From Candidatus Magasanikiibacteriota bacterium (GTDB taxonomy: Bacteria > Patescibacteriota > Patescibacteriia > Magasanikbacterales > UBA922), in contig JABIFP010000020.1 of assembly GCA_018650645.1 (NCBI GenBank), forward strand, positions 82,529 to 146,528: DNA of 64,000 nucleotides, given 5' to 3'. The first letter of the stretch is position 1. Each line of letters begins with the position of its first letter. A program made the position numbers and the translations under genes. The notes under the pieces are model-generated. The model did not search any database. It was not told where the DNA came from and was given only the letters and a program-made list of their open reading frames with translations. Positions 4,966 to 57,499 of the stretch are shown here, piece by piece.

Positions 4966-5751
4966 TTAAGACCCAACGACTCTATTTGCTGGCGTCTCTC
5001 CAATAATCTCTACCTCAAATCCAATACCCACATACGGATAAATAAGCGCCGCATCTTTGATTGAAAGATTTACACATCCATGCGAATGCGTTTGAATACC
5101 AAAATCGTTATGCCAATATGTTCCGTGAATATAATACATCCGTTTAAATTCCATATTCCACGGTACATTTTCTAAATCATAATCTACCCCTCGGTATCTT
5201 TTTGAAGCGAGCTTGCGCTCAATATTAAACGTACCGCTTGGTGTTTCTGTCCATGGATTCCCAGTTGAAGCAGCAAGATTCAAAACTTTTACTTCATCTA
5301 CATAAAAAAACAGCCGCTGATTTGTTTTATCTACCACCATTTTTCGCTCATATGCTAATTCTGGTGCGGCATCTGCAGGCGAATAGCCATGCATCACTTC
5401 ATCGAAATCTTCATACCCGTCACCATCAGAATCCGTTTCATTCATACTCGAACCGAACCACACTTCTAACCAATCGTTTAATCCATCACCATCAAGGTCG
5501 TGTTGATGCATTTGCAACTTTGGCGCAAGCGGAGAATACCCCATCTTTACTTCTCCTCCATCGGGAAACGAATCTCCATCCGTATCGCTTATGAGTGGAT
5601 CGGTAAAATATACAAACTCTTCTTGATAATCTGTAAGCCCGTCACTATCCGTATCGACATCACCTGCCAAGGCCGCAATCGGTACTAAAAACAAACACGC
5701 TGCACTCATAAATATGCAGCGCGCCAGGCGTGTAATCGTATAAGAACGCAT
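4966..5751 (-). CDS. Secreted L,D-transpeptidase (YkuD domain) with N-terminal thrombospondin-type-3 Ca-binding repeats
   Basis: Signal peptide. DTDSDGLTD / DTDGDSFPDGGE / DLDGDGLND / DSDGDGYED repeats. C-terminal catalytic HGxxxx...SHGCVNL motif. Confidence 0.7.
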   Translation of the reverse strand: MRSYTITRLARCIFMSAACLFLVPIAALAGDVDTDSDGLTDYQEEFVYFTDPLISDTDGDSFPDGGEVKMGYSPLAPKLQMHQHDLDGDGLNDWLEVWFGSSMNETDSDGDGYEDFDEVMHGYSPADAAPELAYERKMVVDKTNQRLFFYVDEVKVLNLAASTGNPWTETPSGTFNIERKLASKRYRGVDYDLENVPWNMEFKRMYYIHGTYWHNDFGIQTHSHGCVNLSIKDAALIYPYVGIGFEVEIIGETPANRVVGS

Positions 5752-5752
5752 A

Positions 5753-7213
5753 TTACATCTCTCGTTTCATTCTATAAAGTCCATAAAATATGAGGAACGT
5801 CACAAATGACCCAAGCGCTGCAAATTGCACGATACGCTTTGTAAGGTCTCCACCAACCGCAAGAGAAAACGATTTTTTGTTTGGCGTAAGCGGTTCATCA
5901 TCTTCTGCATCATTCACTCCATCGTTATCTGTATCTGCAGCGTTTGGATTTGTCCCGTCATCTCGCTCAGATTTGTCGTCCACTCCATCGTCATCAGTAT
6001 CAGCTTTTAATGGATCAGTTCCAATACTTCTTTCTTCTTCATCTAAAATTTCATCATTATCATCATCCGTATCAGCATTGTTTCCCTCCCCATCCAAATC
6101 AGTATCTATAGATTCATCCGGATCTAGCGGAAACGCATCAAGTAAATCATTTACCCCATCTCCATCGGTATCTTCTTTCAATGGATCTGTACCACTTTCA
6201 ATTTCAGCACCATCCATGATGCCGTCGCCATCGGTATCTCCCTTGAGTGGATTTGTCCCGTACTGCGCTTCTTCATTATCTAAAATACCATCGTCATCAG
6301 TATCTTTTTTTGCTGGATCAGTACCCGCTTCTACTTCTTTTGGGTCATCAATCCCATCTCCGTCGGTATCAACCTTGGTAGGATCAGATCCATGCATTTT
6401 TTCTTCATTATCGGTAAGTCCATCTCCATCGGTGTCTGGTTTTAGTGGATCTGAGCCGAGTGCTTTTTCTTCTTCATCACTTAATCCATCATTGTCGTCA
6501 TCTGTGTCGGAATTGTCACCAATACCATCGCCATCAACATCTGCCCATTCTCCACCATTTGTTGGGAACGCATCTTCTTTATCTTTTACCCCGTCTCCAT
6601 CACTATCTGCTCTAGCCGGATTTAAACCATTATCTACTTCATGTTTATCATTTAATCCATCGCCATCGGTATCACTATTCACAGGACTTGAACCTATTTC
6701 ATTCTCTTTTGTATCGCTCAGTCCATCATTATCGTCATCTGTGTCTTCCTTATTTCCAACATTATCGCCGTCTGTATCTAAATCAATATCGAGTTCTTGC
6801 GTAATATCAAATGCTGCGATTTGCTGCTCTGTAATATCAATCTGATTTCCATTGGTATCAAATGCAACAATATTGCTGAGTCCCATTTCAATTTGTTTTT
6901 TTCCTTCTCCTAACGTATACGGAACACCTACTTGCCGTGCTTCTTCAAATGCTAAATCAATAACTCGAGCAGAACCAAGTGTTTTACCATCAACAAAAAA
7001 ATCTACATCAGCGCTAAGGCGCGCAAAATTATTATTCACTACAACTGAATATAGCTTTACATCATCCCCTGCAAATCCATCTGGATCAGAAAGCCAGAAA
7101 CCACCATTTGCAACTAAGGTAAACGCCTCTGCAAGCACCATGGTTGGCACGAGTAATGCAACAAGCACCCCTAAAACAAGTTTGCTACGTCTATTGAATA
7201 TCATAAGAATCAA
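5753..7213 (-). CDS. Cell-surface thrombospondin type-3 repeat (DxDxDG) Ca-binding protein with N-terminal signal peptide and C-terminal TM anchor
   Basis: More than 12 tandem DTDGDG/DTDDDG repeats; signal peptide; C-terminal hydrophobic anchor followed by RMKREM. Confidence 0.7.
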   Translation of the reverse strand: MILMIFNRRSKLVLGVLVALLVPTMVLAEAFTLVANGGFWLSDPDGFAGDDVKLYSVVVNNNFARLSADVDFFVDGKTLGSARVIDLAFEEARQVGVPYTLGEGKKQIEMGLSNIVAFDTNGNQIDITEQQIAAFDITQELDIDLDTDGDNVGNKEDTDDDNDGLSDTKENEIGSSPVNSDTDGDGLNDKHEVDNGLNPARADSDGDGVKDKEDAFPTNGGEWADVDGDGIGDNSDTDDDNDGLSDEEEKALGSDPLKPDTDGDGLTDNEEKMHGSDPTKVDTDGDGIDDPKEVEAGTDPAKKDTDDDGILDNEEAQYGTNPLKGDTDGDGIMDGAEIESGTDPLKEDTDGDGVNDLLDAFPLDPDESIDTDLDGEGNNADTDDDNDEILDEEERSIGTDPLKADTDDDGVDDKSERDDGTNPNAADTDNDGVNDAEDDEPLTPNKKSFSLAVGGDLTKRIVQFAALGSFVTFLIFYGLYRMKREM

Positions 7214-8066
7214 TATCTATTGAGAGAAGTATATCACCCTTTTGTGCAGTCTGCCAAACTGAAGCGCCATTTTTTTTGAGCCTATCTGTTACTGACCTTG
7301 CTGGATGTCCGTACGAATTATCCTTACTTGCAGAAATGATCGCATGTTCCGGAGAGACTGCTTCAAGAAAAGAAGCACCCGATGAGGTCTTACTTCCGTG
7401 GTGTCCTACTTTTAAAATATCAACATCAAGCTTCTCAGCATACGTTTCAACTAAGTATGTTTCTAACGCTGATTCTGCATCACCGGTAAGCAAAACACTG
7501 GTATCACCAACATCTACTCGCATAACAATTGATGTATCGTTACTATCAAACGAAGTACTCCCTGGAACCAGCGGATCGTCTTGCATATTATGATCCGGAT
7601 ACAGTACCTGCAAGCGCGCTTCCCCAAGAATAAATTCTCTCGGCTCCATAATTACCATTTCTTCTGCATATTCCTTCTCAACATACCCTAAAAATGATGT
7701 ATATAGCGTGTTTTGCTTCCCTACTCCTGTGAGAATAATTTGTTCCACATCAAACCCCGCTAATACATCCATACAGCCAGCATAATGATCAGCATCAGGA
7801 TGGGTAATGACCATATACGTAATTGTTCTATCAAACGCTGGCATGACCCGCCCAAGGGCATCAAGCACCTGCGCGCCGCGTGAACAATCTATAAGCATAT
7901 CTTCCCCATTTGTAAACTGCAGGTAGGTTGCATCGCCTTGCCCGACGTCTAAAAATGCGATACGCGTGTTCGCAGAAGAGAATGATTGGAGCTCAGAAGA
8001 AAATATTCCAAGAAGTATAACTATTGCAGCAGTAAGAAGCTGCATGAGTGCATGATTTTTTTTCAT
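7191..8066 (-). CDS. Metallo-beta-lactamase-fold protein (ComEC C-terminal-domain-like) with its own signal/TM segment
   Basis: DVGQGDATYL...HPDADH and HHGSKTS MBL motifs; it sits immediately downstream of the ComEC membrane gene. Confidence 0.7.
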   Translation of the reverse strand: MKKNHALMQLLTAAIVILLGIFSSELQSFSSANTRIAFLDVGQGDATYLQFTNGEDMLIDCSRGAQVLDALGRVMPAFDRTITYMVITHPDADHYAGCMDVLAGFDVEQIILTGVGKQNTLYTSFLGYVEKEYAEEMVIMEPREFILGEARLQVLYPDHNMQDDPLVPGSTSFDSNDTSIVMRVDVGDTSVLLTGDAESALETYLVETYAEKLDVDILKVGHHGSKTSSGASFLEAVSPEHAIISASKDNSYGHPARSVTDRLKKNGASVWQTAQKGDILLSIDIDSYDIQ

Positions 8067-14537: not shown

Positions 14538-15074
14538 TCAGCCCGTGAAGGTGACCAGCCGCGCCGCGATGTCGGCAAGCTCGAGGATCTCCACGGACAT
14601 GTCCGTCAGACTGCCCACCGGCACCAGGACCGCATCGTAGCCGATGATCCGGTTCTGGTCCTTCTGGAGCAAGTGCGAAAGCGCCCACACCTCACCGTCG
14701 ACGACGAAGTTTCCGCTCTCATCGACCGTGAACTCCTTCTTCTGGAAGACGATCCAGTGGGTCAGGCCCGCGCGGTGGACAACCTTGCCATCCTTCACGC
14801 AGATGAAGCCAGCGATCGCTTCCGCAGGCATGGCCGACTCACCTTGCCCGTTGTAGTACGTGACCCCTTCCGGGCACACCAGGCGAAGGGTCGGCTCGGC
14901 GTCGATGATGGGCGCGCCGTACGCGCCGTTCTTCAACTGGTAGAAGAGGTTCTGACCATCTTTCCCCGGGTTGAAGAAGTTGTAGCTGTCCGCCTCGTAG
15001 GTCATGGTGGTCTTGCTGTCCCCCACGACTGCGAACTCAAACACCCACTGACCACAGGTGATTTTCACCTTCAT
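14538..15074 (-). CDS. Compositionally foreign (high-G+C) hypothetical protein of 178 aa (MKVKITCGQWVFEF...); function unknown
   Basis: Strong G/C bias at third codon positions, unlike the neighbours. Consensus SD AAGGAG 6 nt before the ATG at 15074. Own terminator. The supplied 206-aa ORF extends upstream of the SD-supported start. Confidence 0.6.
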   Translation of the reverse strand: MKVKITCGQWVFEFAVVGDSKTTMTYEADSYNFFNPGKDGQNLFYQLKNGAYGAPIIDAEPTLRLVCPEGVTYYNGQGESAMPAEAIAGFICVKDGKVVHRAGLTHWIVFQKKEFTVDESGNFVVDGEVWALSHLLQKDQNRIIGYDAVLVPVGSLTDMSVEILELADIAARLVTFTG

Positions 15075-15105
15075 CTCAAACTCCTTAAGTCGTGCTCTCC
15101 ACACC

Positions 15106-15135
15106 CAAAAAACAGGCGTAGATACACCTGTTTTA
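15106..15135 (-). terminator. Hairpin plus T-run on the minus strand, downstream of the 15162..15947 gene
   Basis: ACAGG-TGTATCTACG-CCTGT followed by TTTTTT on the minus strand. It lies between the stop at 15162 and the SD of the foreign gene. Confidence 0.4.
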
Positions 15136-15161
15136 TCAAAAAAATCCCTATTTGTCAACCC

Positions 15162-37807: not shown

Positions 37808-38884
37808 CTACTTTTTTATTGCTTTGCTCACAAGCTTTCGCACCGCTGCAGGAGAAGCGATTGGAATAGCTTTTGAGAGCCCATCAGTAAGCTTCTTAGC
37901 CTGCGGAGCACTCCAATGCAGTACATCGAGCAATTGATTTGTAACTGTTTCTTGTGGCGCTTCTTCATCGAGCACAATTGCGCCACCAAATGTATCAATA
38001 TGTGCAGCATTCTTTTGCTGATGTCCTGCTTTTGGAATGAGGAGCGTTAATTTTTTTAGCGCAGAAAGTTCTGTTAATGTACCAAACCCGGCCCTTGAAA
38101 CAACAATATCTGCAGCAGCTAATATATCTGGCAATTCTTCTGAAACAAATGGAATATGATGATACCAATCACAGGCAGCTTCAAGTGCAGCGAGCTCTTT
38201 ATGTGCACGTTTTTGCCCAGAAAGATGGATGATTTGCGCTTCGCCTTTTAACACCGGAACCGCTTCTTTTATAAACGTATTTATTTTTTCTGCACCCGTT
38301 CCACCGCCCAAAGCAAGGACCACCTTTTCTTTTGAAACAATACCGGCAAAATCTTTTCCCTTCTTAGCACTTCCCTTTTGGATCGCTACTCGTACGGGGT
38401 TTCCCAGCACTACTGGTGAATAGGCTTCAAATGCTACAGCAGACGCAGCTGTTGCCGCACTTACAACCGTTGCCCACCGTGCCATGATGGTATTTGCAAG
38501 CCCCGCTTCAATATCTTGCTGATGTACTATTGTTGAAATTTTCAGCAGTTTTGCAGCCACATGCACCGGAACAGATACAAATCCCCCAGTTGTAATACAT
38601 AGTGCGGGTTTATGTTTTTTCAATAATCGAATCGATTGAAGCACACCAATACCAAACCGAATAGCATCAGTAAACGTACGAAGTGACACGTATCTTCGGA
38701 GCTTCCCTGCTTGAATAGACGCAAATGGTATTCTGGCTTCTTTTACTAGCTGACACTCTGGTCCAGATCTTGTGCCAATCCAAAAAAAATCGTATTGATC
38801 TTTTGGTAGCGCCTCTGCCATAGCTAAAAGTGGCGTCACTGGCCCAAGCGTATATCCCCCAGAAAATAAAATCGTTTGTTTCAT
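37808..38884 (-). CDS. murG: Undecaprenyldiphospho-muramoylpentapeptide beta-N-acetylglucosaminyltransferase
   Basis: ILFSGGYTLGPVTPLLAMAEAL N-terminal G-loop; GT28 architecture; ~358 aa; adjacent to ftsW. Confidence 0.85.
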   Translation of the reverse strand: MKQTILFSGGYTLGPVTPLLAMAEALPKDQYDFFWIGTRSGPECQLVKEARIPFASIQAGKLRRYVSLRTFTDAIRFGIGVLQSIRLLKKHKPALCITTGGFVSVPVHVAAKLLKISTIVHQQDIEAGLANTIMARWATVVSAATAASAVAFEAYSPVVLGNPVRVAIQKGSAKKGKDFAGIVSKEKVVLALGGGTGAEKINTFIKEAVPVLKGEAQIIHLSGQKRAHKELAALEAACDWYHHIPFVSEELPDILAAADIVVSRAGFGTLTELSALKKLTLLIPKAGHQQKNAAHIDTFGGAIVLDEEAPQETVTNQLLDVLHWSAPQAKKLTDGLSKAIPIASPAAVRKLVSKAIKK

Positions 38885-38885
38885 A

Positions 38886-39980
38886 TTATGTTTGCTTACT
38901 CACATTAACTACAAGCCCAGCTGCTAATAAAGCAACCATCAGCGCCGTTCCTCCGTGCGAAACAAATGGTAGTGGGACTCCGGTCATTGGCATAATGCCA
39001 AGCATGGAACCGATGTTGAAAAAGGATTGAGAAATAAACCAAATGATAACCCCAAGCACCAGAATGCGCCCAAAATCATCAGCATGTTTTGCAATACATA
39101 TTGCTCGCCTTGCTATGATGAGTAAAAACACAATCATGAGCGAAGAAATAATAACACCCATTTCTTCTGCAATGATAGCAAAAATACTATCTGCGTGCAC
39201 CTCTGGTAAATACGCATGCTTTTGCCTTGAGTGCCCCAAACCGCGGCCCATCCATCCTCCAGAACCAACCGCTACTTGCGCCTGCAAAATATGATACCCA
39301 GAAGTATCTAAATGCTCATTTGGATTTAAAAAGGTTGTTAACCGCTCGGCTCTATATGGTGCAATGATAATAAGCACCGCCAGTGCGGCTATGGCTAACC
39401 CAAATAGTGCCGAAAGATGACTCATTTTTGATCCTGCTACAAACAGTACACCAAAACAAATCGCAAACATAATTGCCGCAGAACCCAAATCTGGCTGGAG
39501 GAGAATAAGCCCCACAGGAAGTAATCCTAAAAGCAATATCGGTAAAAATCCATGTTTAAAATCCTTTATTTTTGGACCGATTTTTGCGCCATACCATGCA
39601 AGCGCAAGAATCATGCCAACCTTTGCAAGCTCAGCAGGCTGAAAAGAAAATCCAAATAATGAAATCCAGCTTTGCGCTCTAGTACCATAATCTGCTCCAA
39701 TTCCTGGGATGAGGACGAGTGCCAGCAATAAAAACGAAAGCCCCGCAAACACCGGCGCGTACTTCTGTAATTTTTTATACGGAAATTTAGAGGCAATCAC
39801 AAACAGTACTACCCCCGGAATAGCACCAAATAGTATCTGCCGCGTAATGAAGAAAAACGGATTATCAAATCGATTTACAGAACTCGCTGACGTAAGCATG
39901 ACAAGCCCAAACAACAGAAACAAAAAAATATACGATAAAAACGTATAATCAGTTCCTTTTGATTGCGCTCTTTGAGTCAT
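38886..39980 (-). CDS. ftsW: SEDS-family peptidoglycan glycosyltransferase FtsW/RodA
   Basis: 10-TM protein with the conserved C-terminal PFVSHGGTALM motif. Confidence 0.85.
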   Translation of the reverse strand: MTQRAQSKGTDYTFLSYIFLFLLFGLVMLTSASSVNRFDNPFFFITRQILFGAIPGVVLFVIASKFPYKKLQKYAPVFAGLSFLLLALVLIPGIGADYGTRAQSWISLFGFSFQPAELAKVGMILALAWYGAKIGPKIKDFKHGFLPILLLGLLPVGLILLQPDLGSAAIMFAICFGVLFVAGSKMSHLSALFGLAIAALAVLIIIAPYRAERLTTFLNPNEHLDTSGYHILQAQVAVGSGGWMGRGLGHSRQKHAYLPEVHADSIFAIIAEEMGVIISSLMIVFLLIIARRAICIAKHADDFGRILVLGVIIWFISQSFFNIGSMLGIMPMTGVPLPFVSHGGTALMVALLAAGLVVNVSKQT

Positions 39981-39981
39981 A

Positions 39982-40338
39982 TTATACGTTCAAAAAGACC
40001 AGAAGCAATGAAATAATGAGAACGAACAGTTGGCACAGTGCTGCCCCAAAAAGGAGGACATATGAGGCAAATCGATCCTTTTGAAATAATTCTGCTGCAA
40101 AATAGGTGTTAAGCCCGATTATGAGTATCCCCACCGCGGGAAGTACAAATACGGTATGCCAGGCACCTGTAAGATCTACCCCAAATAGGACGGTATAGTG
40201 TAAAAATAAGGCCTCTTCTGTTGGGCGAATATGCCAAAGCAGCCATCCCCAGGCAAAAAGGTTGCAAAGCGATGCGATTCCAACTAAAATAATCACCTGT
40301 GGCCGCCGAAAAAAGAGTTTCACGTTAGAAAGTTGCAT
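39982..40338 (-). CDS. Small membrane protein (3 TM), unknown function
   Basis: Hydrophobic segments; 1-nt gap to ftsW. Confidence 0.4.
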   Translation of the reverse strand: MQLSNVKLFFRRPQVIILVGIASLCNLFAWGWLLWHIRPTEEALFLHYTVLFGVDLTGAWHTVFVLPAVGILIIGLNTYFAAELFQKDRFASYVLLFGAALCQLFVLIISLLLVFLNV

Positions 40339-40401
40339 GAGTGTACAAAATTAGCCAATTCTTGCTAAATATCCCTGTTATTATACTCCACAGCGCTCTT
40401 C

Positions 40402-40430
40402 TTGACAACATCGGCTCTAGAGCGTATAAT
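40402..40430 (+). promoter_or_regulatory. Consensus sigma70 promoter TTGACA, 17-nt spacer, TATAAT upstream of rpmA
   Basis: Exact -35 and -10 hexamers with a 17-nt spacer, about 70 nt upstream of the rpmA ATG. Confidence 0.6.
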
Positions 40431-40499
40431 GGCCCCACTATCGCAGGCTTACCTTAATCTGGTTTGCTCCTGTGCACCATTTCTATTAATTGAGAAGAT

Positions 40500-40775
40500 A
40501 TGGCTCATAAAAAAGCCGGTGGTTCAGCGAAGAGCTTACGCGACTCGAATCCACAGTACCTTGGTACCAAAGTTGGTGACGGACAAACTGTTCGCGCTGG
40601 AATGGTGCTTGTACGACAACGTGGTACAAAAATCCGCCCGGGACAAAATGTAAAAAAAGGAAAAGACGATACCCTTTATGCTGGAACAGCTGGAGTGGTA
40701 AAGTTCAGCAGTAAAAAGATGCGTCGATTTGACGGACGCCTCAAAATGGCAACATTTGCAAACATCGAAGCGTAA
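40500..40775 (+). CDS. rpmA: 50S ribosomal protein L27 (stand-alone, no adjacent rplU)
   Basis: [30 protein letters not shown]-terminus. Confidence 0.9.
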
Positions 40776-40784
40776 GCTTTGTAG

Positions 40785-40816
40785 AAAAACTACTCGTATG
40801 AGTGGTTTTTTTGTTG
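40785..40816 (+). terminator. Intrinsic terminator after rpmA (A-run, ACTACTC-GTAT-GAGTGGT, T7), copy 1 of a 32-bp direct repeat
   Basis: Hairpin plus TTTTTTT. The identical 32-mer recurs at 41809..41840. Confidence 0.6.
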
Positions 40817-40870: not shown

Positions 40871-41794
40871 ATGGAAGGAATTGTTCGCGAACAGCCCAAG
40901 GCACCACTTAGCCTGGAACAGCTTCAAGGAAAGACAGGATATGAGTTAAAGGGCCTTGCTACTGAGCACAAAGAAAATCCTGCGAATCTCTTCTGGCAAT
41001 TAGTTGCAGCCTCAGATGAATCTTCACTACACCGCAGATTTCCTCTTTCACTAATGGAACACGCAACACATTTGCTTCCCGACGGAAAAAAAGTTTCTGG
41101 GTTTGGAAATAATGACAGCGCAAGAAGAGCCTATTCTGAATTGCTTGATCGGGCCATGCCTGGTTCTGGTCACGATACAAAAAGTATTAGAGCTGAGGAT
41201 CCAAATCATTTTCCAGGTGATCAAAAATACTTGCCCCGATTAGGTAAATATACAAGAACTGAGCAGTTATTTGCAGGAAATCTAGTGTGGACTAGCAAAG
41301 CCCAAGATTTACGTGCGAGAGCCAATATTAAGCGAGGTACTGATACTGCCTCTGCTGCGGAAAAACTGGCAGCACAAGCTGAAAGCAATATACAAGAAAT
41401 AGATGAAACTCTTGGTACAGATGCAGGATCCTCCATTACGCAAGCCCTTGCAAAAGCTACTGAGCTTGCAGTATCACCGCGCAGTGAGCGAGACGTGATA
41501 CAGGCAAGCAGAATATTTGAGCATATTTCTCATACACTGACAGGGGCAATCAATTCTGACTTTGATTACGATGCTGCCCCGGGAACAACTCTCAAAAAGC
41601 ACCCTAAAGATCAGCTGAAAGACGCACTGTCAAAAGAGTGGCTTACTCAAGCCTCTGCTGGAACTACACAGACTGAACAATTACATTCAGCGGCTGAGAT
41701 AAGAGATGCACTGTTTGTCCTTGCAAAAGCACTTGACCAAAGAAGCCTTCAAGGACGAGATGGATTAACAGCTGAAATTGAACAAGCTACATAG
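40871..41794 (+). CDS. Hypothetical soluble protein (307 aa, hydrophilic, no TM or signal peptide), bracketed by the duplicated terminator
   Basis: Complete ORF. Composition slightly more G+C-rich than the host by eye. No recognisable motif. Confidence 0.5.
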   Translation: MEGIVREQPKAPLSLEQLQGKTGYELKGLATEHKENPANLFWQLVAASDESSLHRRFPLSLMEHATHLLPDGKKVSGFGNNDSARRAYSELLDRAMPGSGHDTKSIRAEDPNHFPGDQKYLPRLGKYTRTEQLFAGNLVWTSKAQDLRARANIKRGTDTASAAEKLAAQAESNIQEIDETLGTDAGSSITQALAKATELAVSPRSERDVIQASRIFEHISHTLTGAINSDFDYDAAPGTTLKKHPKDQLKDALSKEWLTQASAGTTQTEQLHSAAEIRDALFVLAKALDQRSLQGRDGLTAEIEQAT

Positions 41795-41808: not shown

Positions 41809-41840
41809 AAAAACTACTCGTATGAGTGGTTTTTTTGTTG
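41809..41840 (+). terminator. Second copy of the 32-bp rpmA terminator (direct repeat) after the 307-aa gene
   Basis: AAAAACTACTCGTATGAGTGGTTTTTTTGTTG identical to 40785..40816. Confidence 0.6.
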
Positions 41841-41869
41841 ACAGAAACAGTAAATAGCCGTAGAGTCTA

Positions 41870-42295
41870 GTGAAACACGAACTCTTGAGGGATTCCATGC
41901 GAAATGTGCTATGGACGGCTCTCTTGATTGCCGTCTTTCGATTTGTGACGTATTCACAAGACCTACCTGAGGTACTGTTCTTTGCGGCTTCCTTTGTGGT
42001 CGTCATGCAGAGGATCCTCTATGAGGTGCAGCGCTCGGCAGAGTCGAAGAAGTATCAACGGTGGGCCATCATTGGTAGCTGGTATGTTCAAAACATCAGC
42101 GCCATGGCGGTGATCCTGGCGGCGATCGCCGGGCTCGGACACTGGGTGAACTTTGTGGACGGCCGATCGAACAGTGAACCCGACCCCGTGCCGCTCGCGC
42201 TGCTACTCCTGCTGTGCGTCGTCGGCCTGGCAGGCTTTCTGTCACTCGACCCAACCAACCCAACCAGCCACCTCGGTGGCAAGGAGGACAACTAG
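41870..42295 (+). CDS. Compositionally foreign (high-G+C) small 4-TM membrane protein; start is GTG 41870 or ATG 41897
   Basis: G+C-rich codons; four hydrophobic helices. GAGGGA precedes ATG 41897 by 4 nt. Own terminator directly after the stop. Confidence 0.5.
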   Translation: MKHELLRDSMRNVLWTALLIAVFRFVTYSQDLPEVLFFAASFVVVMQRILYEVQRSAESKKYQRWAIIGSWYVQNISAMAVILAAIAGLGHWVNFVDGRSNSEPDPVPLALLLLLCVVGLAGFLSLDPTNPTSHLGGKEDN

Positions 42296-42296
42296 T

Positions 42297-42324
42297 GGGC
42301 CGCGCATGCGGTCCTTTTGCTTTT
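42297..42324 (+). terminator. Intrinsic terminator GGGCCGC-GCAT-GCGGTCC followed by TTTTGCTTTT
   Basis: 7-bp stem with one G-U pair, tetraloop, and a T-rich tract immediately after the stop at 42295. Confidence 0.55.
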
Positions 42325-42342
42325 ACGCTATACTATAGTCCT

Positions 42343-42798
42343 ATGAAATATTATATCCTTCTTTTAGCCATTTTCTTTACCTTTGGGTTTGGCTGTACAA
42401 AAACAGTAGCACCAACATATACACCTCCTGAGGGACAGGTGCACATTGATCCGCAAGAACAGGTAACGCTGGAAGGTTACCTTTCAGCATCCAACCAAGC
42501 AGCAGGAAAAACGCTCACTATTGATGAAGTACAAGTATCAAAGCATGCGTGGATTGCTATTTATGCTTCTGATAAAAACAGACCCGGCAAAATATTGGTA
42601 GCGACAGCCGTGTCCCCTGCTGACCGTGGTCCCGTTGCTATTGCATTACCAAACTCTTCAACCGTTGGCGAAATGTACTATATTCTCTTGCATGAAAGCG
42701 GCAGTGAACCAGGATTCAACTTTATGGAAGACGATTTTCCGAGTGATGCGACGAAAGCTACCAGTGTAGAGATTGTTGACAAGAATACACAAATATGA
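42343..42798 (+). CDS. Lipoprotein (signal peptide with lipobox ...FGFGC), unknown function
   Basis: MKYYILLLAIFFTFGFGCTK N-terminus. The supplied ORF 42214..42798 starts upstream inside the foreign gene; the ATG at 42343 gives a canonical lipoprotein signal. Confidence 0.55.
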   Translation: MKYYILLLAIFFTFGFGCTKTVAPTYTPPEGQVHIDPQEQVTLEGYLSASNQAAGKTLTIDEVQVSKHAWIAIYASDKNRPGKILVATAVSPADRGPVAIALPNSSTVGEMYYILLHESGSEPGFNFMEDDFPSDATKATSVEIVDKNTQI

Positions 42799-43107
42799 GA
42801 ACCTGTTCAGCAGGTGGGACCATTAACTCACACAGGGAGAGTAATTCAAGGAAACGCCTGCGGGAGAATTTCGCTTTTTAGAAACCCAAGGGTGACTAAA
42901 GCCTGTAAAGGTATAGCGAGAGAGCCTGGAGATTGGCGTCTAGCTCTAGAAAAGAGCATGCAGGTGAAAACCTGTAAGGTCGATGCGGTGAAATACCTCT
43001 CGGCGCATAAGATCTCCTTGCTTTAATCCTTCGAATAGGCCGGTTCGATGCCGGATGGTCCCCAATTCCCTTCCCCAGGTAGCTTGTGCTACCTGGGGAA
43101 TTTTTAT
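42799..43107 (+). ncRNA. Structured, probably non-coding ~300-nt region between the lipoprotein stop and a double terminator; candidate sRNA or structured 3'UTR of unknown family
   Basis: Multiple clean hairpins (CAGG-TGAAAA-CCTG; ATGCG...CGCAT; CCGG-TTCGATG-CCGG; 11-bp CCCCAGGTAGC-TTGT-GCTACCTGGGG). G+C above the flanks. The only ORF here (70 aa) shows no coding signal. Motifs GGAAACGCCTGCGGG and AGGTGAAAACCTGTAAGG faintly recall RNase-P-type elements, but no P4 strand is present. Confidence 0.3.
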
Positions 43108-43113
43108 ACCTCA

Positions 43114-43148
43114 TAAAAAACATCCGGTTTATCCGGATGCTTTTTATT
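43114..43148. terminator. Bidirectional intrinsic terminator (CATCCGG-TTTA-TCCGGATG flanked by A6 and T-run), preceded by a second plus-strand terminator hairpin at 43073..43107
   Basis: Perfect 7-bp stem; CTTTTTATT follows on the plus strand and a T-run follows on the minus strand. It serves the plus-strand RNA and the convergent minus-strand gene. Confidence 0.6.
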
Positions 43149-43166
43149 CCACTTTTTTTATGGTTT

Positions 43167-43541
43167 TTATTTTCTTTTAGAAGTCGACTTCTTTTGTGTT
43201 GTTTTTTTTGCCGAAGAATTTTTTTTCCGGCTTATTGTATTTTTTACTTTTTTTTCTAATTTACTGGCCAGTTTTCCAACAATAAACTTCTCAACCAGCC
43301 CGGTCATCATGGAGCTCATAACGCCCATGTTTTTGGAAACACCATCTACCTTTCCTCTCATATACTGAACGGCTTCATTGATGAGTTCAAGTTTGTGCGT
43401 GAGTGATTCTACAATGCGATTCGCGTTCTTCAAAATTCTTGCGGCTTCAAATAAAAGCCAGCAGAGAAATACTGTGAAAAATAGCACACACAGTGCAAGA
43501 GCAACGTACAACACGTCTTGACTCGAACTTACAATGTCCAT
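43167..43541 (-). CDS. Small protein with N-terminal TM helix, coiled-coil middle and Lys-rich C-terminal tail; unknown
   Basis: 124 aa; VLYVALALCVLFFTVFLCWLLF TM; C-terminus KKNSSAKKTTQKKSTSKRK. Confidence 0.4.
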   Translation of the reverse strand: MDIVSSSQDVLYVALALCVLFFTVFLCWLLFEAARILKNANRIVESLTHKLELINEAVQYMRGKVDGVSKNMGVMSSMMTGLVEKFIVGKLASKLEKKVKNTISRKKNSSAKKTTQKKSTSKRK

Positions 43542-43659
43542 AGGTCTCCTTTATAATAACAAGCGCTGTGAGTATATCATAGTTGTATACATCTGTGAAA
43601 TCTATAGACAGACCCATCTCTGCTTGCTACCATGAATATACTATTCTTATATATTCGAT

Positions 43660-44355
43660 ATGAAACATATTGTACTCCTTCTTGCTCTTGTCCTTATGGG
43701 GATGGGATGCCTATCTTCCGCAGAAACGCCCGCATCAGACACCATTAACAGCGCAACACTTCCTGTTAATGCTCAGCCGATGGCTTCTTCTACAGAAACA
43801 CCCCGACCAATAGAAGAACCAATTCCATCTGAACCCCCAACTTCTCCTCCACAAGACTTACCCGCAACACCAGTAGCTCCACCGCAAACAGGCTGCACAG
43901 AAGAAGCAAAAATGTGTGAAGATGGTACAGTGGTTGTCAGAACTGGACCAAATTGTGAATTTGAAGCCTGCCAAGATACACCTATACGTGCTTGCACTGA
44001 CGACCAACAATTCTGCGCTGATGATTCAGTACGCCCAAGAAACTTTGAAACCTGCGAATGGCTCGATTGCCCAGAAGAAGTTACGGTATCTATTTCTGTC
44101 ACAGCAAAAAATTGGGAATTTGTACCCGCACAAATCGAGGTTGAAAAAGGAAACACGGTAGAACTAAGCATCACCAGTATTGACGTTGATCACAGCTTTG
44201 CTCTTCCAGCGTTTGGTATTAATACAAAGCTCAGTCCAAACCAAACGTCAGTAGTCACCTTTACTGCTGATAAAACCGGCTCATTTCCATTTTCTTGCAA
44301 AGTCTTTTGCGGAGAAGGACATAAAGGAATGAATGGTGTGCTGATTGTAAAATAG
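43660..44355 (+). CDS. Secreted cupredoxin-domain protein with CuA-type ligand pattern (H...C-x3-C-G-x2-H-x2-M) and a Cys-rich N-terminal region
   Basis: Signal peptide. C-terminal HSFALP...FSCKVFCGEGHKGM matches the CuA site pattern of COX-II/NosZ-type cupredoxins. Eight Cys lie in the preceding ~70 aa. Confidence 0.55.
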   Translation: MKHIVLLLALVLMGMGCLSSAETPASDTINSATLPVNAQPMASSTETPRPIEEPIPSEPPTSPPQDLPATPVAPPQTGCTEEAKMCEDGTVVVRTGPNCEFEACQDTPIRACTDDQQFCADDSVRPRNFETCEWLDCPEEVTVSISVTAKNWEFVPAQIEVEKGNTVELSITSIDVDHSFALPAFGINTKLSPNQTSVVTFTADKTGSFPFSCKVFCGEGHKGMNGVLIVK

Positions 44356-44397: not shown

Positions 44398-44409
44398 TAC
44401 GTTCATTCT

Positions 44410-46815
44410 TTACCTCACCACTGCCCCAAATTTCTTTTCAACTGCAGCAACCACATGCGCGTGTTCACCATCCACTTCTTCTCCGGTAAGCGTTTTATTA
44501 TCATCCCTATACGTTACTCTGTATGCCATGCTCTTTTTACCATCAGCAATATGTTCACCTTGGTATACATCAAAAAGTTGTACATCTGTAATCATTGGTG
44601 AAACTGCAGCAATTGCTTTACGTACATCAGTATCAGCTGTGATACTCTTAACTTCAAACGCTAAATCGCGTTGCACCACTGGAAATGCCGGTAATGGTGT
44701 ATACGCAATGCGTTCATTTACAAGCGGCGCAAGTCGACTCAAGTTCAACTGCACAACCGCAGTTCTATGTGGCACACCAATCGTATCCTGCACCACAGGG
44801 TGAATCTCTGCAATTGATCCCAAATACGTATCCCCTACTTTTACAAATGCGTGACGACCACCGTGCAAATATTCTGGTGATTCATCTGCTTTTTCAAAGG
44901 TAATGGCAAGTCCCAATCGATCTGCTACATTATGCAAAACACCAGAAAGTTCAAAGAACGGTGTTTCAACGCCTTTTTCTGCATATACCAAGCCTAAATA
45001 CTCGTCTTGCCCTGGTAGCATTTCTTTTTTATCTGGATGCGCAAGTGGCCCGTCCTCTTCCGGTCGGTATCCGCGCCCCGTTTCAAACAGTCTCACTGCA
45101 TCAAATCGATGAAGATTACTTTCTACATTCACCATCATGTTTGGAATCAGTCCACGCCGTACAAACGGTCGGTCTTTTGCCAAAGGATGCGCGAGTTCAA
45201 TATAATTTTCTGTAGTAATACCAAATTTTGCAAGCCACTCCGGAGAAACAAATGAGTAGTTATACACTTCTGTGTACCCAGCTTCATATGCTAAAAGTTC
45301 TTTTACACGCTTTTTCATGTCACGCAGTGGACTTGGCGGTGTTGGACTAATGGGAAACGCTGGGAATGTTGTCGGAATATTTTTATACCCGTAACTACGC
45401 GCAACTTCTTCTGTAATATCTTCCGGAATACCAATATCTCCAGTCGCTCTCCACGTTGGAATGGTCACATATAACGTATCCTCTTTTTGCTCTACCCCAA
45501 ATCCTAAACGTGTAAGCAGCTCGCTCATGTCTTTATCTGAAATATCTACTCCAATCCGAGAACGAATTCTGTCTGCAGAAATTTCAAGCGGCCCTAAATC
45601 TTGCTCAAAAGAATGAATATCTGTGAGATTACTCACCACTTTTGCGTTAGGACATAGTTCAAGTGTCAATTCAACCGCTCGCTTCATGGCAAGTTCTGGA
45701 AGATTCGGATCAAGTCCTTTTTCAAATCGAGTTGATGCGTCAGTTCTTACCCCTAACGCAGTAGAGGTTCTTCGGACACTAAGCGCCTCAAAATTAGCCG
45801 CCTCGTACATGATACTGGTGCTTTGATCTGTTACCCCACTATCGTCTCCTCCTTTTACACCCGCAACAGCAATCGCCCGTTTCTTTTCTGTAATAAGCAG
45901 CATACTTGGTTCTAGTTCATATTCTTCCCCACCAAGTAAGACAATCTTTTCTCCTTTTTTTGCTTTTCTTACCACAACAGATGCCACATCAATAGTATCA
46001 GCATCAAACGCATGCATTGGCTGACCCAATTCAAACATCACATAGCTAGTAATGTCTACAATATTATTAATTGGACGAACCCCCACAGCAAGCAATCGTT
46101 TTTGCATCCATGTTGGAGAAGGCTCAACAGTAATACCAGAAAGCTGCACGCCCATATATCGCGGACACAGTTTCTGATCCTTCACTTTTACTTTTACCGC
46201 AGCTTCTGTTCCTTCTACAACCTCTGCCGGTGCATACGCTTTTAGTTCTGTTTTGTACATGGCAGCAAATTCACGAGCCATGCCGTAATGTCCCCACAAA
46301 TCAGGACGGTTTGTCATTGATTTGTTATCTATATCAAAAATTGTATCGTCTAATTTGAGCGCCTTGATTATTTTTGTTCCGTTTTTCACTTTGGCATCAA
46401 ACATTTGAATGCTCAATCCTTCATCTACCAAGCCTAATTCCTGATCTAAACAAAGCATCCCTTCTGATGTTTCACCACGCATTTTTGATTTGTTGATAGC
46501 AAATCCTCCAGGAAGCACAGTTGGTGCTAAAGCAACCGGTACTTTTGCCCCAACATGCATTTCAAGCTTGTTTCCAAATACAATCTGACGAGGAGATTTT
46601 TCCCCTACCTCAACCTGCGCAATATTTAGCTTCTCTGCATTTTCATGTTTTTCAATCGATAAAATTTCTCCAACAACAACTCCATCAAGAAATGCTGTTT
46701 GCTCAACAACTTCTTCAACTTCAACAGTTTGCACAGTAAGTTCCTCTAACATTTCTTCTCCTGATTTTTTTGGAAGAGTAACAAAGTCCTCAATCCATTG
46801 TTTTGAAATTCTCAT
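44410..46815 (-). CDS. pheT: Phenylalanine--tRNA ligase beta subunit
   Basis: 801 aa; N-terminal tRNA-binding region, B3/B4 and B5 domains; immediately downstream of pheS. Confidence 0.9.
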   Translation of the reverse strand: MRISKQWIEDFVTLPKKSGEEMLEELTVQTVEVEEVVEQTAFLDGVVVGEILSIEKHENAEKLNIAQVEVGEKSPRQIVFGNKLEMHVGAKVPVALAPTVLPGGFAINKSKMRGETSEGMLCLDQELGLVDEGLSIQMFDAKVKNGTKIIKALKLDDTIFDIDNKSMTNRPDLWGHYGMAREFAAMYKTELKAYAPAEVVEGTEAAVKVKVKDQKLCPRYMGVQLSGITVEPSPTWMQKRLLAVGVRPINNIVDITSYVMFELGQPMHAFDADTIDVASVVVRKAKKGEKIVLLGGEEYELEPSMLLITEKKRAIAVAGVKGGDDSGVTDQSTSIMYEAANFEALSVRRTSTALGVRTDASTRFEKGLDPNLPELAMKRAVELTLELCPNAKVVSNLTDIHSFEQDLGPLEISADRIRSRIGVDISDKDMSELLTRLGFGVEQKEDTLYVTIPTWRATGDIGIPEDITEEVARSYGYKNIPTTFPAFPISPTPPSPLRDMKKRVKELLAYEAGYTEVYNYSFVSPEWLAKFGITTENYIELAHPLAKDRPFVRRGLIPNMMVNVESNLHRFDAVRLFETGRGYRPEEDGPLAHPDKKEMLPGQDEYLGLVYAEKGVETPFFELSGVLHNVADRLGLAITFEKADESPEYLHGGRHAFVKVGDTYLGSIAEIHPVVQDTIGVPHRTAVVQLNLSRLAPLVNERIAYTPLPAFPVVQRDLAFEVKSITADTDVRKAIAAVSPMITDVQLFDVYQGEHIADGKKSMAYRVTYRDDNKTLTGEEVDGEHAHVVAAVEKKFGAVVR

Positions 46816-49708: not shown

Positions 49709-50086
49709 TTAGTTCGCCAGCCGAAGGCTAGCGATCCGCAGCATAGTACCAGCAGTCGTGTAGAGCTCCCCAAGGCGCAACTTCGAAAAGTCGACCCCAG
49801 GACGCATCGAACCACTCATAACGAGGACCGGAACAGACGAGAACCTCTCGGTAATAGCCTGTTTAAGCCAGAACCCGTTATGACGGTGCTGCATGTCGAC
49901 GTCCGTAATGACTAGATCGACACGCGTGGTCTCCATCAGCTCGAGAGCCTCTGGAGGGTTATTGGCGAAGACGATGTCAACGTCCATCACGTGCACCCTG
50001 GCCATGTAGCGCAACAAGTTGCGCCGGACCAAGATCTGGATGTTCGTTTCGTCGTCGACGACCAAAACAGTGGGCTTGTTACCCAT
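49709..50086 (-). CDS. Compositionally foreign (high-G+C) single-domain response regulator (CheY-like receiver, 125 aa)
   Basis: LVVDDE acidic pocket, the LVITDVDM phospho-acceptor Asp, and the VLVMSGS Thr/Ser position. SD AGGAG 5 nt before the ATG at 50086. The supplied ORF, extended to 50152, is not supported by the SD. Confidence 0.65.
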   Translation of the reverse strand: MGNKPTVLVVDDETNIQILVRRNLLRYMARVHVMDVDIVFANNPPEALELMETTRVDLVITDVDMQHRHNGFWLKQAITERFSSVPVLVMSGSMRPGVDFSKLRLGELYTTAGTMLRIASLRLAN

Positions 50087-50123
50087 GGTTGCTCCTCTCG
50101 TTGAGGTGCACCACGGGCTTTCA

Positions 50124-50135
50124 CCGTCGGGGGAT
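50124..50135. repeat. Right arm of the 12-bp inverted repeat, CCGTCGGGGGAT
   Basis: See 49563..49574. Confidence 0.6.
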
Positions 50136-50151
50136 AGCCCCAAGTAAACCA

Positions 50152-50415
50152 TTATTTTGACGTTTTGTCAATCCCTAAGCGCGTAATAAGTTGTTGTTTT
50201 TGTTCTTTTGAAAATTGTTTAATCTGCCACTCACGCTTAAGCGCCGCAGATCTATCCGTACATTTCTCACTATACACAAGTGTTATGGGGAGCCGCGCAC
50301 GCACATATTTGGCTCCTTTGCCTGATCTGTGCACCGCTAGCCGTGATTCTAGATCTTTTGCTATTCCTGTATATAAGCTACCGTCTGTGCATGACAAAAT
50401 ATAAACTGTGTACAT
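50152..50415 (-). CDS. GIY-YIG nuclease-family small protein (YhbQ/UPF0213-like)
   Basis: YTVYILSCTDGSLYTGIAKDLESRLAVH GIY-YIG motif; 87 aa; host-like composition. Confidence 0.75.
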   Translation of the reverse strand: MYTVYILSCTDGSLYTGIAKDLESRLAVHRSGKGAKYVRARLPITLVYSEKCTDRSAALKREWQIKQFSKEQKQQLITRLGIDKTSK

Positions 50416-50572: not shown

Positions 50573-50995
50573 CTACTGGGAAAACCTGTTCGGCGGAGGC
50601 GCCTGGGGCCTTGCCTCTTGGAGCAGATGATCGCGGAGTGCGGTAGCGGCGGCTTGCGCAGCACCGTCGATGCTCGCGGCGTCGAGCGGCCCGAGAGCTT
50701 CGGCAGCATTCTGCGCTACAAATACGCGATACGCGCCAGTGAGCGCCTCGATCTGCTCGCCGTTGAGCGGGAACTGCGCAGCGTCAAGCTCAACCTCTCT
50801 GAGCGCTTGCGTATATATATATGTTAGGAAATCCCCAACATTCCCCTCCTGCGCTGACGCCAGCTTGATCTCAGCCGAAAAGGCCTTGACCAACTCACCC
50901 TCGCAAGTGAGAACACTCCCAATTCGTTCCTCGCTGCGCTCTTCTTCAATATTACGAGCGGCCCAGACTTCTGGTACCATGTTTTCCATACCCAT
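50573..50995 (-). CDS. Compositionally foreign (high-G+C) acidic hypothetical protein (140 aa, Ala/Glu-rich, Pro-rich C-terminus)
   Basis: G+C-rich codon usage. AGGGG SD 6 nt before the ATG. A structured ~120-nt 3'UTR with a GCTCC-UUCG-GGAGC hairpin. Confidence 0.55.
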   Translation of the reverse strand: MGMENMVPEVWAARNIEEERSEERIGSVLTCEGELVKAFSAEIKLASAQEGNVGDFLTYIYTQALREVELDAAQFPLNGEQIEALTGAYRVFVAQNAAEALGPLDAASIDGAAQAAATALRDHLLQEARPQAPPPNRFSQ

Positions 50996-56818: not shown

Positions 56819-57499
56819 CTAGAGCCTGCAGCCGTTGCGAGCCACCGAGATAGCGTTCGCGAGCTTGCTTTCGACGGTCATCCTCGTCCTCTCCTCGAGG
56901 GGATAACCACCATAGTGAGCCACCTTCACGGGAGATTCATCGTGAAGGTCTACCACGATGGGAACATTCCGTGACTTGTCACCGGACGCGAGAGAAACCG
57001 CAATGATCTTTCCCTCACGGATCGTGATCTCCGGACGCTGCTGCCCCCCAGCCGAAGTCCTCAGAAGAGACATCACGTCCCGGAGAAGATCATCGCTGAT
57101 CACGATTTCCAGCTCACCGAAGGCTCCGCGGAGTTTCGCCATCACATCCAGATAGAACTCCGCTTCACGATGTAGCTGACGCAATTGCCTAAGCTCCACG
57201 TGCAGACCCGAGATGGCCTTGTGCATCGGGAGGGCATCCTCACCCCTCCGACAATGCAGCACCAGGATGCGTCCCGAGAAAGGCCCCGCGGCAATCACTT
57301 TCGGATCGCTCTGAGGGAGCATTTTCACACGCGCGCACCGCTTCCAGCTGAGAACCGTGGGTACTGGACCCACGCCAGGATACTGCACCCAGTGCTCCAC
57401 CAGCTCTTCCAGCTGATTCTCCGTGAGTTTGATCCGCTGATCCACTAGCACGTGCTGGATCGTCGCCTTCAGGGCCGCATAGAATGCCGCACTGATCAT
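56819..57499 (-). CDS. Compositionally foreign (high-G+C) hypothetical protein (226 aa); no recognisable domain
   Basis: Strong G/C bias at third positions in an AT-rich context; own terminator; AT-rich upstream region. Confidence 0.5.
   Translation of the reverse strand: MISAAFYAALKATIQHVLVDQRIKLTENQLEELVEHWVQYPGVGPVPTVLSWKRCARVKMLPQSDPKVIAAGPFSGRILVLHCRRGEDALPMHKAISGLHVELRQLRQLHREAEFYLDVMAKLRGAFGELEIVISDDLLRDVMSLLRTSAGGQQRPEITIREGKIIAVSLASGDKSRNVPIVVDLHDESPVKVAHYGGYPLEERTRMTVESKLANAISVARNGCRL

What the first reader, a model, noticed from the sequence alone, without database searches (positions are those of the whole stretch)
41809..42324. Foreign G+C-rich 4-TM membrane protein directly after a direct-repeat-bracketed gene
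A 141-aa, four-helix membrane protein with G+C-rich codons and its own terminator (GGGCCGC-GCAU-GCGGUCC) sits between the duplicated rpmA terminator and a native lipoprotein gene. Small 4-TM proteins next to a soluble gene of unknown function are a common arrangement for immunity/toxin or effector/chaperone pairs. Here the partner, 40871-41794, is bracketed by repeats and has intermediate composition.
Basis: inference. Interest (0 to 1): 0.55.

Follow-up and report, generated by a model that had tools for sequence, protein, structure and literature searches.

The report
Foreign orphan membrane gene, not paired
A small four-helix membrane protein gene with strongly foreign (G+C-rich) codon usage was recently inserted, on its own, downstream of rpmA in a Candidatus Magasanikbacteria genome; it has no detectable relatives anywhere and is not a toxin/immunity partner of its neighbour, so it is an ordinary single-gene horizontal acquisition of unknown function.

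Summary
An intact ORF (41870-42295; likely start ATG 41897, 132 aa) encodes four hydrophobic helices. Its GC3 is 0.71, against 0.34±0.05 for 55 native ORFs. It has a promoter-like site, an SD-like motif and a GC-rich hairpin terminator, and it lies between the second copy of a perfect 32-nt rpmA-terminator repeat and a lipoprotein gene. The locus is 100% identical in at least 24 independently assembled contigs, so it is not a chimera.

The toxin/immunity reading is not supported:
- The closest related species (L27 93% identical) keeps rpmA, a 311-aa orthologue of the neighbour and the lipoprotein gene in the same order, but lacks this ORF.
- One Logan contig carries the ORF without the 307-aa gene.
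- The 307-aa gene is compositionally native (GC3 0.29), not intermediate.
- A terminator and a promoter-like site separate the two genes.
- No toxin, immunity or defence family matches either protein.

An exhaustive HMMER scan of 1.84 billion representatives found only the protein itself, and fold, phage, plasmid and viral searches found nothing.

It is one of five unrelated GC-rich single-gene islets in this 64-kb window, and a more distant relative carries different ones. Best reading: a recent single-gene horizontal acquisition of unknown function. Interest is low to moderate.

The parts
40785..40816 (+). Copy 1 of the 32-nt direct repeat, which is the intrinsic terminator of rpmA (hairpin ACTACTC-GTAT-GAGTGGT plus T-run). 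Its last three bases, TTG, begin the -35 (TTGTGC-17-TATGAT, read by eye) of the 307-aa gene.
40871..41794 (+). 307-aa soluble, mostly helical protein of unknown function. It is compositionally native (GC3 0.29). It has an orthologue in the sister species at the same position (311 aa, 33% identity). It is not a partner of the membrane ORF.
41809..41840 (+). Copy 2 of the 32-nt repeat (32/32 identical), the terminator of the 307-aa gene. Its last three bases, TTG, form the first half of the -35 hexamer of the next promoter-like site.
41838..41866 (+). Sigma-70-like promoter candidate, TTGACA-17-TAGAGT (10 of 12). It is placed to start transcription at about 41873.
   Evidence: consensus match only, function inferred
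41887..41892 (+). Shine-Dalgarno-like GAGGGA, 4 nt before ATG 41897.
   Evidence: read
41897..42295 (+). Coding sequence of the 132-aa four-helix membrane protein. The longest ORF starts at GTG 41870 (141 aa). GC is 0.57 and GC3 0.71. It is species-specific and has no homologues.
42297..42324 (+). G+C-rich intrinsic terminator belonging to the foreign segment: GGGCCGC-GCAT-GCGGTCC followed by TTTTGCTTTT.
42343..42798 (+). Native DUF7282 lipoprotein gene, the downstream boundary of the insertion. It is 41% identical to the sister-species orthologue, which directly follows the 311-aa gene there.

Best explanation
A fragment of about 0.45-0.5 kb from an unidentified donor of roughly 57-60% G+C, carrying one complete gene and its own hairpin terminator, was integrated recently. 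The integration happened after the split from the closest sampled relative. It landed in the short spacer between the terminator of the 307-aa gene and the DUF7282 lipoprotein gene of this 42%-GC Candidatus Magasanikbacteria genome.

Inferred expression:
- The gene is probably transcribed from TTGACA-17-TAGAGT (41838-41866), whose -35 is half made of the last bases of the terminator repeat.
- It is probably translated from ATG 41897 behind GAGGGA.
- The product would insert into the cytoplasmic membrane as a 132-aa, four-helix, N-in/C-in protein.
- Transcription would stop at 42297-42324.

The gene acts independently of the 307-aa neighbour. It is one of several unrelated G+C-rich single-gene islets in this genome and its relatives, so it is an accessory ('cloud') gene.

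What is shown: foreign composition, coding periodicity, absence from the sister locus, fixation in the sampled population, and lack of any relative.

What is inferred: donor type, promoter use, topology and function.

My rough split for function:
- About 45%: a stand-alone accessory membrane protein of unknown activity.
- About 25%: an exclusion or immunity-type protein acting alone or against something unlinked.
- About 20-25%: a neutral, transient passenger.
For: - GC3 is 0.71 against 0.337 +/- 0.047 for 55 native ORFs, with no overlap between the two groups.
- Codon periodicity was reached in 0 of 5000 shuffles.
- Four hydrophobic helices and positive-inside loops.
- Promoter-like site and terminator.
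- Sister locus L090 is syntenic (MurG 66%, FtsW 81%, L27 93%, DUF948 90% identity). It has the 311-aa gene followed after 151 nt by DUF7282, and tblastn finds no trace of the ORF.
- More distant relatives also lack it.
- The locus is 100% identical in at least 24 contigs from JGI, ENA and Logan assemblies.
- Only self-hits in 5.8 billion clustered proteins and in an exhaustive phmmer scan of 1.84 billion representatives.
- Four further unrelated GC-rich single-ORF islets lie in the window, three of them (A, C, D) followed, as read by eye, by their own GC-rich hairpin plus T-run.
- Relative L105 has different islets at other sites.
- Horizontal transfer of individual genes into Patescibacteria is documented (PMC12455944).
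Against: - No donor or homologue was found, so transfer rests on composition and phyletic pattern alone.
- All copies are identical, so purifying selection cannot be tested.
- There are no expression data.
- ORF length alone is only marginally unusual for this GC-rich stretch (p about 0.03-0.06).
- The first 30 or so codons are less GC-rich (GC3 0.45-0.6).
- The insertion boundaries could not be mapped by alignment to the sister intergenic region, where scores did not exceed shuffles.
- The AF2 model is of modest confidence (pLDDT 68) and made from a single sequence.
Confidence: 0.7

Rival explanations
1. Immunity/toxin or effector/chaperone pair. The 4-TM protein protects against, or assists, the 307-aa protein encoded just upstream.
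For: The two genes are adjacent on the same strand. The size and helix number resemble small polytopic immunity proteins (resemblance only). Both are of unknown function.
Against: - The sister species keeps the 311-aa orthologue without any membrane ORF.
- Contig L099 has the membrane ORF without the 307-aa gene.
- GC3 is 0.29 versus 0.71, so the genes differ in origin and age.
- A terminator copy and a separate promoter-like site lie between them.
- No toxin, immunity or defence family hits.
- The profile of the 307/311 pair hits nothing in PDB sequences below E 0.06.
Confidence: 0.04
2. Non-functional passenger. A recently integrated piece of foreign DNA happens to retain an intact ORF, but the ORF gives the cell nothing and will decay.
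For: - No homologues anywhere.
- No polymorphism with which to show selection.
- The gene is species-restricted.
- Most species-specific orphans are transient cloud genes (PMC11293555).
Against: - The ORF is complete, with a start codon, an SD-like motif, a stop codon and a terminator 1 nt after the stop.
- The membrane topology is well formed and obeys the positive-inside rule.
- The gene is fixed and intact in every contig from many samples.
Confidence: 0.2
3. The gene is ancestral in this clade and was deleted in the sister species. On this view the unusual composition does not indicate transfer.
For: Only one close relative is available. The intergenic regions are too diverged to show a clean empty site.
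Against: - A GC3 of 0.71 could not persist unameliorated over the divergence seen between the two species (FtsW 81%, MurG 66% amino-acid identity).
- More distant relatives also lack it downstream of rpmA.
- No homologue exists in 1.84 billion representatives.
Confidence: 0.04
4. The region is not protein-coding. It would be a G+C-rich structured RNA or other non-coding element in which a long ORF is open by chance, or an assembly chimera.
For: GC-rich DNA has few stop codons. Several overlapping ORFs of 43-67 aa are open in other frames. The open-run p-value is only about 0.03-0.06.
Against: - Strong three-base periodicity, 0 of 5000 shuffles.
- The RNA fold z-score is -0.34.
- No Rfam hit, even at E up to 1.
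- Identical junctions on both sides in independent JGI, ENA and Logan assemblies.
Confidence: 0.02

Closest known systems
Species-specific orphan (cloud) genes of prokaryotic pangenomes (Vakirlis & Kupczok 2024, PMC11293555)
   Same: It is short, restricted to one species-level population, has no detectable homologue, and lies in a variable intergenic hot spot.
   Different: In that survey the GC content of orphans closely matches that of their genome, and the virus-like minority has lower GC. Here GC3 is about 8 SD above the host genes, and there is no viral similarity.
Individually transferred genes and genomic islands in Patescibacteria/CPR (PMC12455944)
   Same: The recipient is a CPR bacterium, and a single gene was gained by horizontal transfer without an obvious large mobile element.
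   Different: That study identified donors, mostly other Patescibacteria, by sequence similarity. Here no donor or relative exists in the databases, and the composition points to a much more G+C-rich source. No integrase, transposase or tRNA target lies at the site.
Small polytopic immunity proteins encoded next to bacteriocin or polymorphic-toxin genes (general knowledge, not a single family)
   Same: It is about 130 aa with four transmembrane helices and sits next to a gene of unknown function.
   Different: There is no linked toxin domain. The neighbour occurs without it and it occurs without the neighbour. The two genes are separate transcription units. There is no family match.
Known small four-helix membrane families: GtrA-like (PF04138), SMR (PF00893), LrgA/CidA holin-like (PF03788), TctB (PF07331). 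The accession numbers of the first three are from my own knowledge.
   Same: Size and number of helices.
   Different: There is no significant Pfam or NCBIfam match. The best hits are DUF4131 (E 0.05), AcrZ (0.15) and TctB (0.19), all far below the curated cut-offs. There are no structural matches: the best PDB hit has E 0.74 and the best BFVD hit E 0.11.

Membership tests
Toxin/immunity (or effector/chaperone) gene pair | The two genes co-occur, being gained, kept and lost together across genomes. | tested here: not met
   L090 has the 311-aa orthologue but no membrane ORF. L099 has the membrane ORF but no 307-aa gene (that contig may be a k=31 artefact).
Toxin/immunity (or effector/chaperone) gene pair | The genes are co-transcribed or translationally coupled in one operon. 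| tested here: not met
   A full copy of the rpmA terminator (41809-41840) and a promoter-like site (41838-41866) lie between the genes. This is sequence prediction only.
Toxin/immunity (or effector/chaperone) gene pair | The partner carries a recognisable toxin or effector domain or secretion signal, or the small protein matches an immunity family. | tested here: not met
   No Pfam, NCBIfam, PADLOC or PHROG family for either protein. The PDB sequence profile search is negative. The AF2 model of the 307-aa protein is unusable (pLDDT 42.6).
Toxin/immunity (or effector/chaperone) gene pair | Toxicity of the partner is relieved by the small protein. | not testable with these tools
   This requires expression experiments.
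Horizontally acquired gene (genomic islet) | Composition or codon usage is atypical for the recipient genome. | tested here: met
   GC3 is 0.71 against 0.337 +/- 0.047, z = 8.1.
Horizontally acquired gene (genomic islet) | The gene is absent from the orthologous site of close relatives. | tested here: met
   L090 is syntenic without the gene. L093/L105, L096 and L097 also lack it.
Horizontally acquired gene (genomic islet) | An identifiable donor lineage or homologues exist in other taxa. | tested here: not met
   Only self-hits. Nothing in phages, plasmids or IMG/VR.
Horizontally acquired gene (genomic islet) | Mobility signatures are present at the site, such as an integrase or transposase, a tRNA target, or flanking target-site duplications. 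| tested here: not met
   There are no tRNAs in the window and no mobility domains in the neighbours. No significant repeats flank the GC-rich segment itself. The 32-nt repeat brackets the neighbouring native gene, not this one.
Bona fide integral membrane protein gene | The gene has an intact ORF with coding periodicity, hydrophobic helices about 20 residues long, and positive-inside loops. | tested here: met
Bona fide integral membrane protein gene | There is evidence of purifying selection or of expression. | not testable with these tools
   There are no homologues and no polymorphism inside the ORF. No transcript data are available.

The most novel reading that the evidence does not exclude
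The ORF is one product of a systematic process. This Magasanikbacteria lineage repeatedly captures gene-sized, unameliorated G+C-rich modules, each one ORF and most with their own terminator. The source would be an unsampled G+C-rich gene pool, possibly the host cell of this presumed episymbiont.

The modules land in intergenic spacers without any recognisable mobile-element machinery. There are five unrelated modules among 60 ORFs of this window, and different ones in relative L105.

On this reading the 4-TM protein would be a host-derived or host-directed membrane factor. The set of islets would be a molecular record of who the host is.
Probability: 0.2. Interest if true: 0.55.

Novelty: new member of a known kind. 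Interest (0 to 1): 0.28.

Why it matters
The gene by itself matters little. It is a hypothetical membrane protein with no relatives and no demonstrable link to its neighbour, and the attractive toxin/immunity story can be set aside.

What may be worth a specialist's attention is the pattern it belongs to:
- About 8% of the larger ORFs in this CPR window are compositionally foreign, G+C-rich, mutually unrelated single-gene insertions.
- A related species has its own, different set.
- This is the opposite of the usual picture, in which species-specific orphans share the host's GC or are more A+T-rich (PMC11293555).

If the donors could be identified, the islets might point to the unknown hosts of marine Magasanikbacteria.

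Tried and rejected
**Homology and structure searches**
- Word-indexed search of 5.8 billion proteins for both ORFs: only self.
- Exhaustive phmmer of the 132-aa protein: only self.
- Pfam, NCBIfam, PADLOC, PHROGs and PDB sequences: nothing significant.
- Foldseek against PDB and BFVD with the pLDDT-68 model: no match below E 0.1.
- The AF2 model of the 307-aa protein was too poor to search (pLDDT 42.6).
- tblastn against phages and plasmids, and an IMG/VR scan: nothing. The same held for three other islets.

**Alternative natures of the region**
- Structured RNA is rejected: z = -0.34 and no Rfam hit.
- Assembly chimera is rejected.

**Searches that were uninformative**
- Both metagenome-contig scans returned 0. 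The second was a control pattern that matches the window's own rpmA end and the JGI-derived loci. That collection therefore does not hold this population, and the negative 'empty site' result means nothing.

**Mapping the insertion**
- Aligning the sister intergenic region to map the insertion point gave scores no better than shuffles.
- The idea that the promoter upstream of the ORF is the displaced lipoprotein promoter therefore stays speculative.

**Links between islets**
- A shared motif or homology among the five GC-rich islets was looked for and not found.

Full report
**What is there**

The window is from a Candidatus Magasanikbacteria (CPR/Patescibacteria) metagenome-assembled genome. 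NCBI names the two proteins HOE53_02930 and HOE53_02935.

The gene order around the finding is MurG(-), FtsW(-), a 118-aa membrane protein(-), rpmA(+), a 307-aa ORF(+), the G+C-rich ORF(+), a DUF7282 lipoprotein(+), DUF948(-), a cupredoxin protein(+), PheT(-).

- The ORF at 41870-42295 is open for 141 codons from a GTG.
- JGI, ENA and Logan gene calls use ATG 41897 (132 aa). NCBI uses GTG 41945 (116 aa).
- ATG 41897 is preceded by GAGGGA at 41887-41892.
- The promoter-like site TTGACA-17-TAGAGT (41838-41866) ends only 3 nt before GTG 41870. I therefore take the 132-aa form as the product. This is an inference.

**Is it more than chance?**

- Window GC is 0.424, and the ORF has GC 0.57 with GC1/2/3 of 0.61/0.39/0.71.
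- Among 60 non-overlapping ORFs of at least 120 aa, 55 have GC3 of 0.337 +/- 0.047 (maximum 0.468). This ORF lies 8.1 SD away.
- The three-base periodicity (GC3-GC2 = 0.318) was never reached in 5000 shuffles.
- The open run of 143 codons alone is only marginal in such GC-rich DNA (p about 0.03-0.06). The case for coding therefore rests on periodicity and protein features, not on length.
- Hydropathy shows four peaks, and single-sequence AF2 gives four helices (pLDDT 68, pTM 0.50).
- K/R residues concentrate at the N-terminus and in loop 2, while loops 1 and 3 are acidic. This fits N-in/C-in.
- As RNA the region is not unusually structured (z = -0.34), and no Rfam family matches.
- The terminator at 42297-42314 followed by a T-run, and the perfect 32-nt repeat (40785-40816 and 41809-41840), are confirmed.

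**Not an artefact**

The whole arrangement, including both junctions of the GC-rich segment, is 100% identical in contigs from independent JGI, ENA and Logan assemblies of different samples. At least 24 contigs carry the ORF.

**Comparative evidence**

The closest relative found is GCA_041294365.1, contig JBGCVJ010104033.1, fetched as locus L090. Its L27 is 93% identical and its GC is 0.40.

- It is syntenic. Amino-acid identities are MurG 66%, FtsW 81%, the 118-aa protein 80.5%, DUF948 90% and DUF7282 41%.
- A 311-aa protein sits after rpmA and is a diverged orthologue of the 307-aa protein (33% identity, E 4e-34).
- In L090 the 311-aa gene is followed after 151 nt by the lipoprotein gene. 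The membrane ORF is absent, and tblastn finds no remnant.
- More distant relatives (L27 79-82% identical) have other small genes between rpmA and DUF948/PheT or a different downstream context. None has the 307-aa gene or the membrane ORF.
- The stretch downstream of rpmA is therefore a variable hot spot, and the GC-rich ORF is its newest, lineage-specific addition.
- The intergenic sequences are too diverged to map the insertion point by alignment.

**The pair hypothesis**

- The 307-aa gene is compositionally native (GC 0.445, GC3 0.29), not intermediate.
- It is vertically inherited, because the sister species has an orthologue at the same position and the region just after terminator copy 1 can be aligned between the two species.
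- It is separated from the membrane ORF by a terminator copy and a promoter-like site.
- It exists without the membrane ORF in L090.
- Conversely, Logan contig L099 (SRR7617950, 8.1 kb) joins rpmA, one repeat copy and the membrane ORF, an exact 1024-nt deletion of the 307-aa gene.
- Logan assemblies use k=31 as far as I know, and the repeat is 32 nt. Other Logan contigs break exactly at the repeat (L008, L009, L101, L102). L099 may therefore be either a true recombinant or a graph artefact.
- Neither protein matches any toxin, immunity or defence model.

I therefore put the pair reading at about 4%.

**What it is**

- The protein has no relatives. There are only self-hits in the word-indexed search of 5.8 billion clustered proteins and in an exhaustive phmmer scan of 1.84 billion representatives.
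- There are no PDB sequence hits and no meaningful Foldseek hits in PDB or BFVD.
- Nothing was found in phage, plasmid or IMG/VR collections.

The best-supported explanation is a recent horizontal acquisition of a single gene with its own terminator from an unsampled donor of about 57-60% GC. The gene would be expressed as a small polytopic inner-membrane protein of unknown, probably accessory, function.

**Context that changes the picture**

- The window holds four more GC-rich single-ORF islets: 14538-15158, 49709-50152 (a receiver domain), 50573-50995 and 56819-57499. Their GC is 0.56-0.58 and their GC3 is 0.61-0.79.
- They are unrelated to each other and to this ORF.
- Three of the four (14538-15158, 50573-50995 and 56819-57499) are followed by their own GC-rich hairpin and T-run.
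- All sit in 90%-identity clusters confined to this population.
- Relative L105 lacks the two islets between RseP and LemA but has its own unrelated GC-rich ORFs elsewhere.
- Horizontal transfer into Patescibacteria is documented (PMC12455944).
- However, species-specific orphans usually share their genome's GC, or are A+T-richer if virus-like (PMC11293555). The direction of the bias here is therefore unusual.

**Verdict**

The finding is a new, uncharacterised instance of a known kind, a horizontally acquired orphan gene. Its own interest is modest, and the recurrent GC-rich islets and the side observations listed separately are the more promising leads.

Noticed in passing
window 42799-43108 (+): This is a 310-nt intergenic stretch between the lipoprotein stop codon and the shared terminator at 43121-43139. 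It is absent from sister locus L090. It folds far better than shuffles, with z = -6.98, and still z = -5.0 without its 13-bp terminal hairpin. The minus strand gives only z = -2.4. It is closed by GGGACCAU/AUGGUCCC with a T-loop-like CCGG-UUCGAUG-CCGG beside the 3' strand. It has no Rfam family even at E up to 10, no ARAGORN hit, and is single-copy. It is a candidate novel structured or tRNA-like RNA.
   Followed up: partly
window 14538-15158(-), 49709-50152(-), 50573-50995(-), 56819-57499(-): These are four further G+C-rich single-ORF islets (GC 0.56-0.58, GC3 0.61-0.79). They are mutually unrelated, and three of them (all but 49709-50152) are followed by their own GC-rich hairpin plus T-run. 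Three have no family in Pfam, NCBIfam, PHROGs or PADLOC, and one is a response-regulator receiver domain. All are confined to this population's 90% clusters.
   Followed up: partly
window 40785-40816 / 41809-41840, and L090 6286-6312 / 7340-7366: The two terminators flanking the 307/311-aa gene are identical within each species: 32/32 here and 26/27 in L090. Their hairpin sequences differ between the species, although the promoter region after copy 1 is alignable. This looks like concerted evolution, by gene conversion or by excision and reintegration through the repeat, rather than a recent insertion scar.
   Followed up: partly
L099 (Logan SRR7617950), equal to window 37873-40816 joined to 41841-43992: This contig shows an exact 1024-nt deletion of one repeat copy plus the 307-aa gene (rpmA-R-132aa). 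It is either a real recombinant or empty-site variant, or a k=31 assembly artefact, because the repeat is 32 nt and other Logan contigs break at it.
   Followed up: partly
window 40871-41794 and 42343-42798 compared with L090: The 307-aa protein and the DUF7282 lipoprotein are only 33% and 41% identical to their sister-species orthologues. Flanking proteins are 66-93% identical. These are very fast-evolving genes in a variable hot spot downstream of rpmA.
   Followed up: no
window 43660-44355 (+): A cupredoxin/COX2-like lipoprotein gene lies between DUF948 and PheT. It is absent from the orthologous position in L090 and L105. It is another lineage-specific insertion, but of native composition.
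   Followed up: no
window 40380-40430, and L090 5881-5931: Overlapping divergent promoter-like sites with perfect or near-perfect consensus sit between the 118-aa gene and rpmA: TTGACA-17-TATAAT (12 of 12) on the plus strand and TTGTCA-17-TATAAT (11 of 12) on the minus strand. They are conserved in the sister species.
   Followed up: no
L105 55-738(+) and 19194-19745(-); L095 about 5100-6000: Related Magasanikbacteria carry their own G+C-rich ORFs or segments (GC 0.59-0.62) at other positions. The two L105 ORFs were tested and are not homologous to any islet of the window; the L095 segment was only profiled for GC.
   Followed up: partly
window 44406-44493 compared with L001/L098: One JGI contig differs from the window by an indel at the cupredoxin-PheT junction, and PheT is then called as 818 instead of 801 aa.
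   Followed up: no
window 50152-50415 (-): A small GIY-YIG-type protein gene of native composition sits exactly between two of the GC-rich islets. The family assignment is read from the sequence MYTVYILSCTDGSLYTGIAKDL... and rests on my own recognition, not on a family search.
   Followed up: no
tool behaviour: metagenome contigs: A degenerate control pattern matches the window's own rpmA 3' end and JGI-derived loci, yet it returned 0 hits in metagenome contigs. Negatives from that collection for this organism, including, are therefore uninformative.
   Followed up: yes
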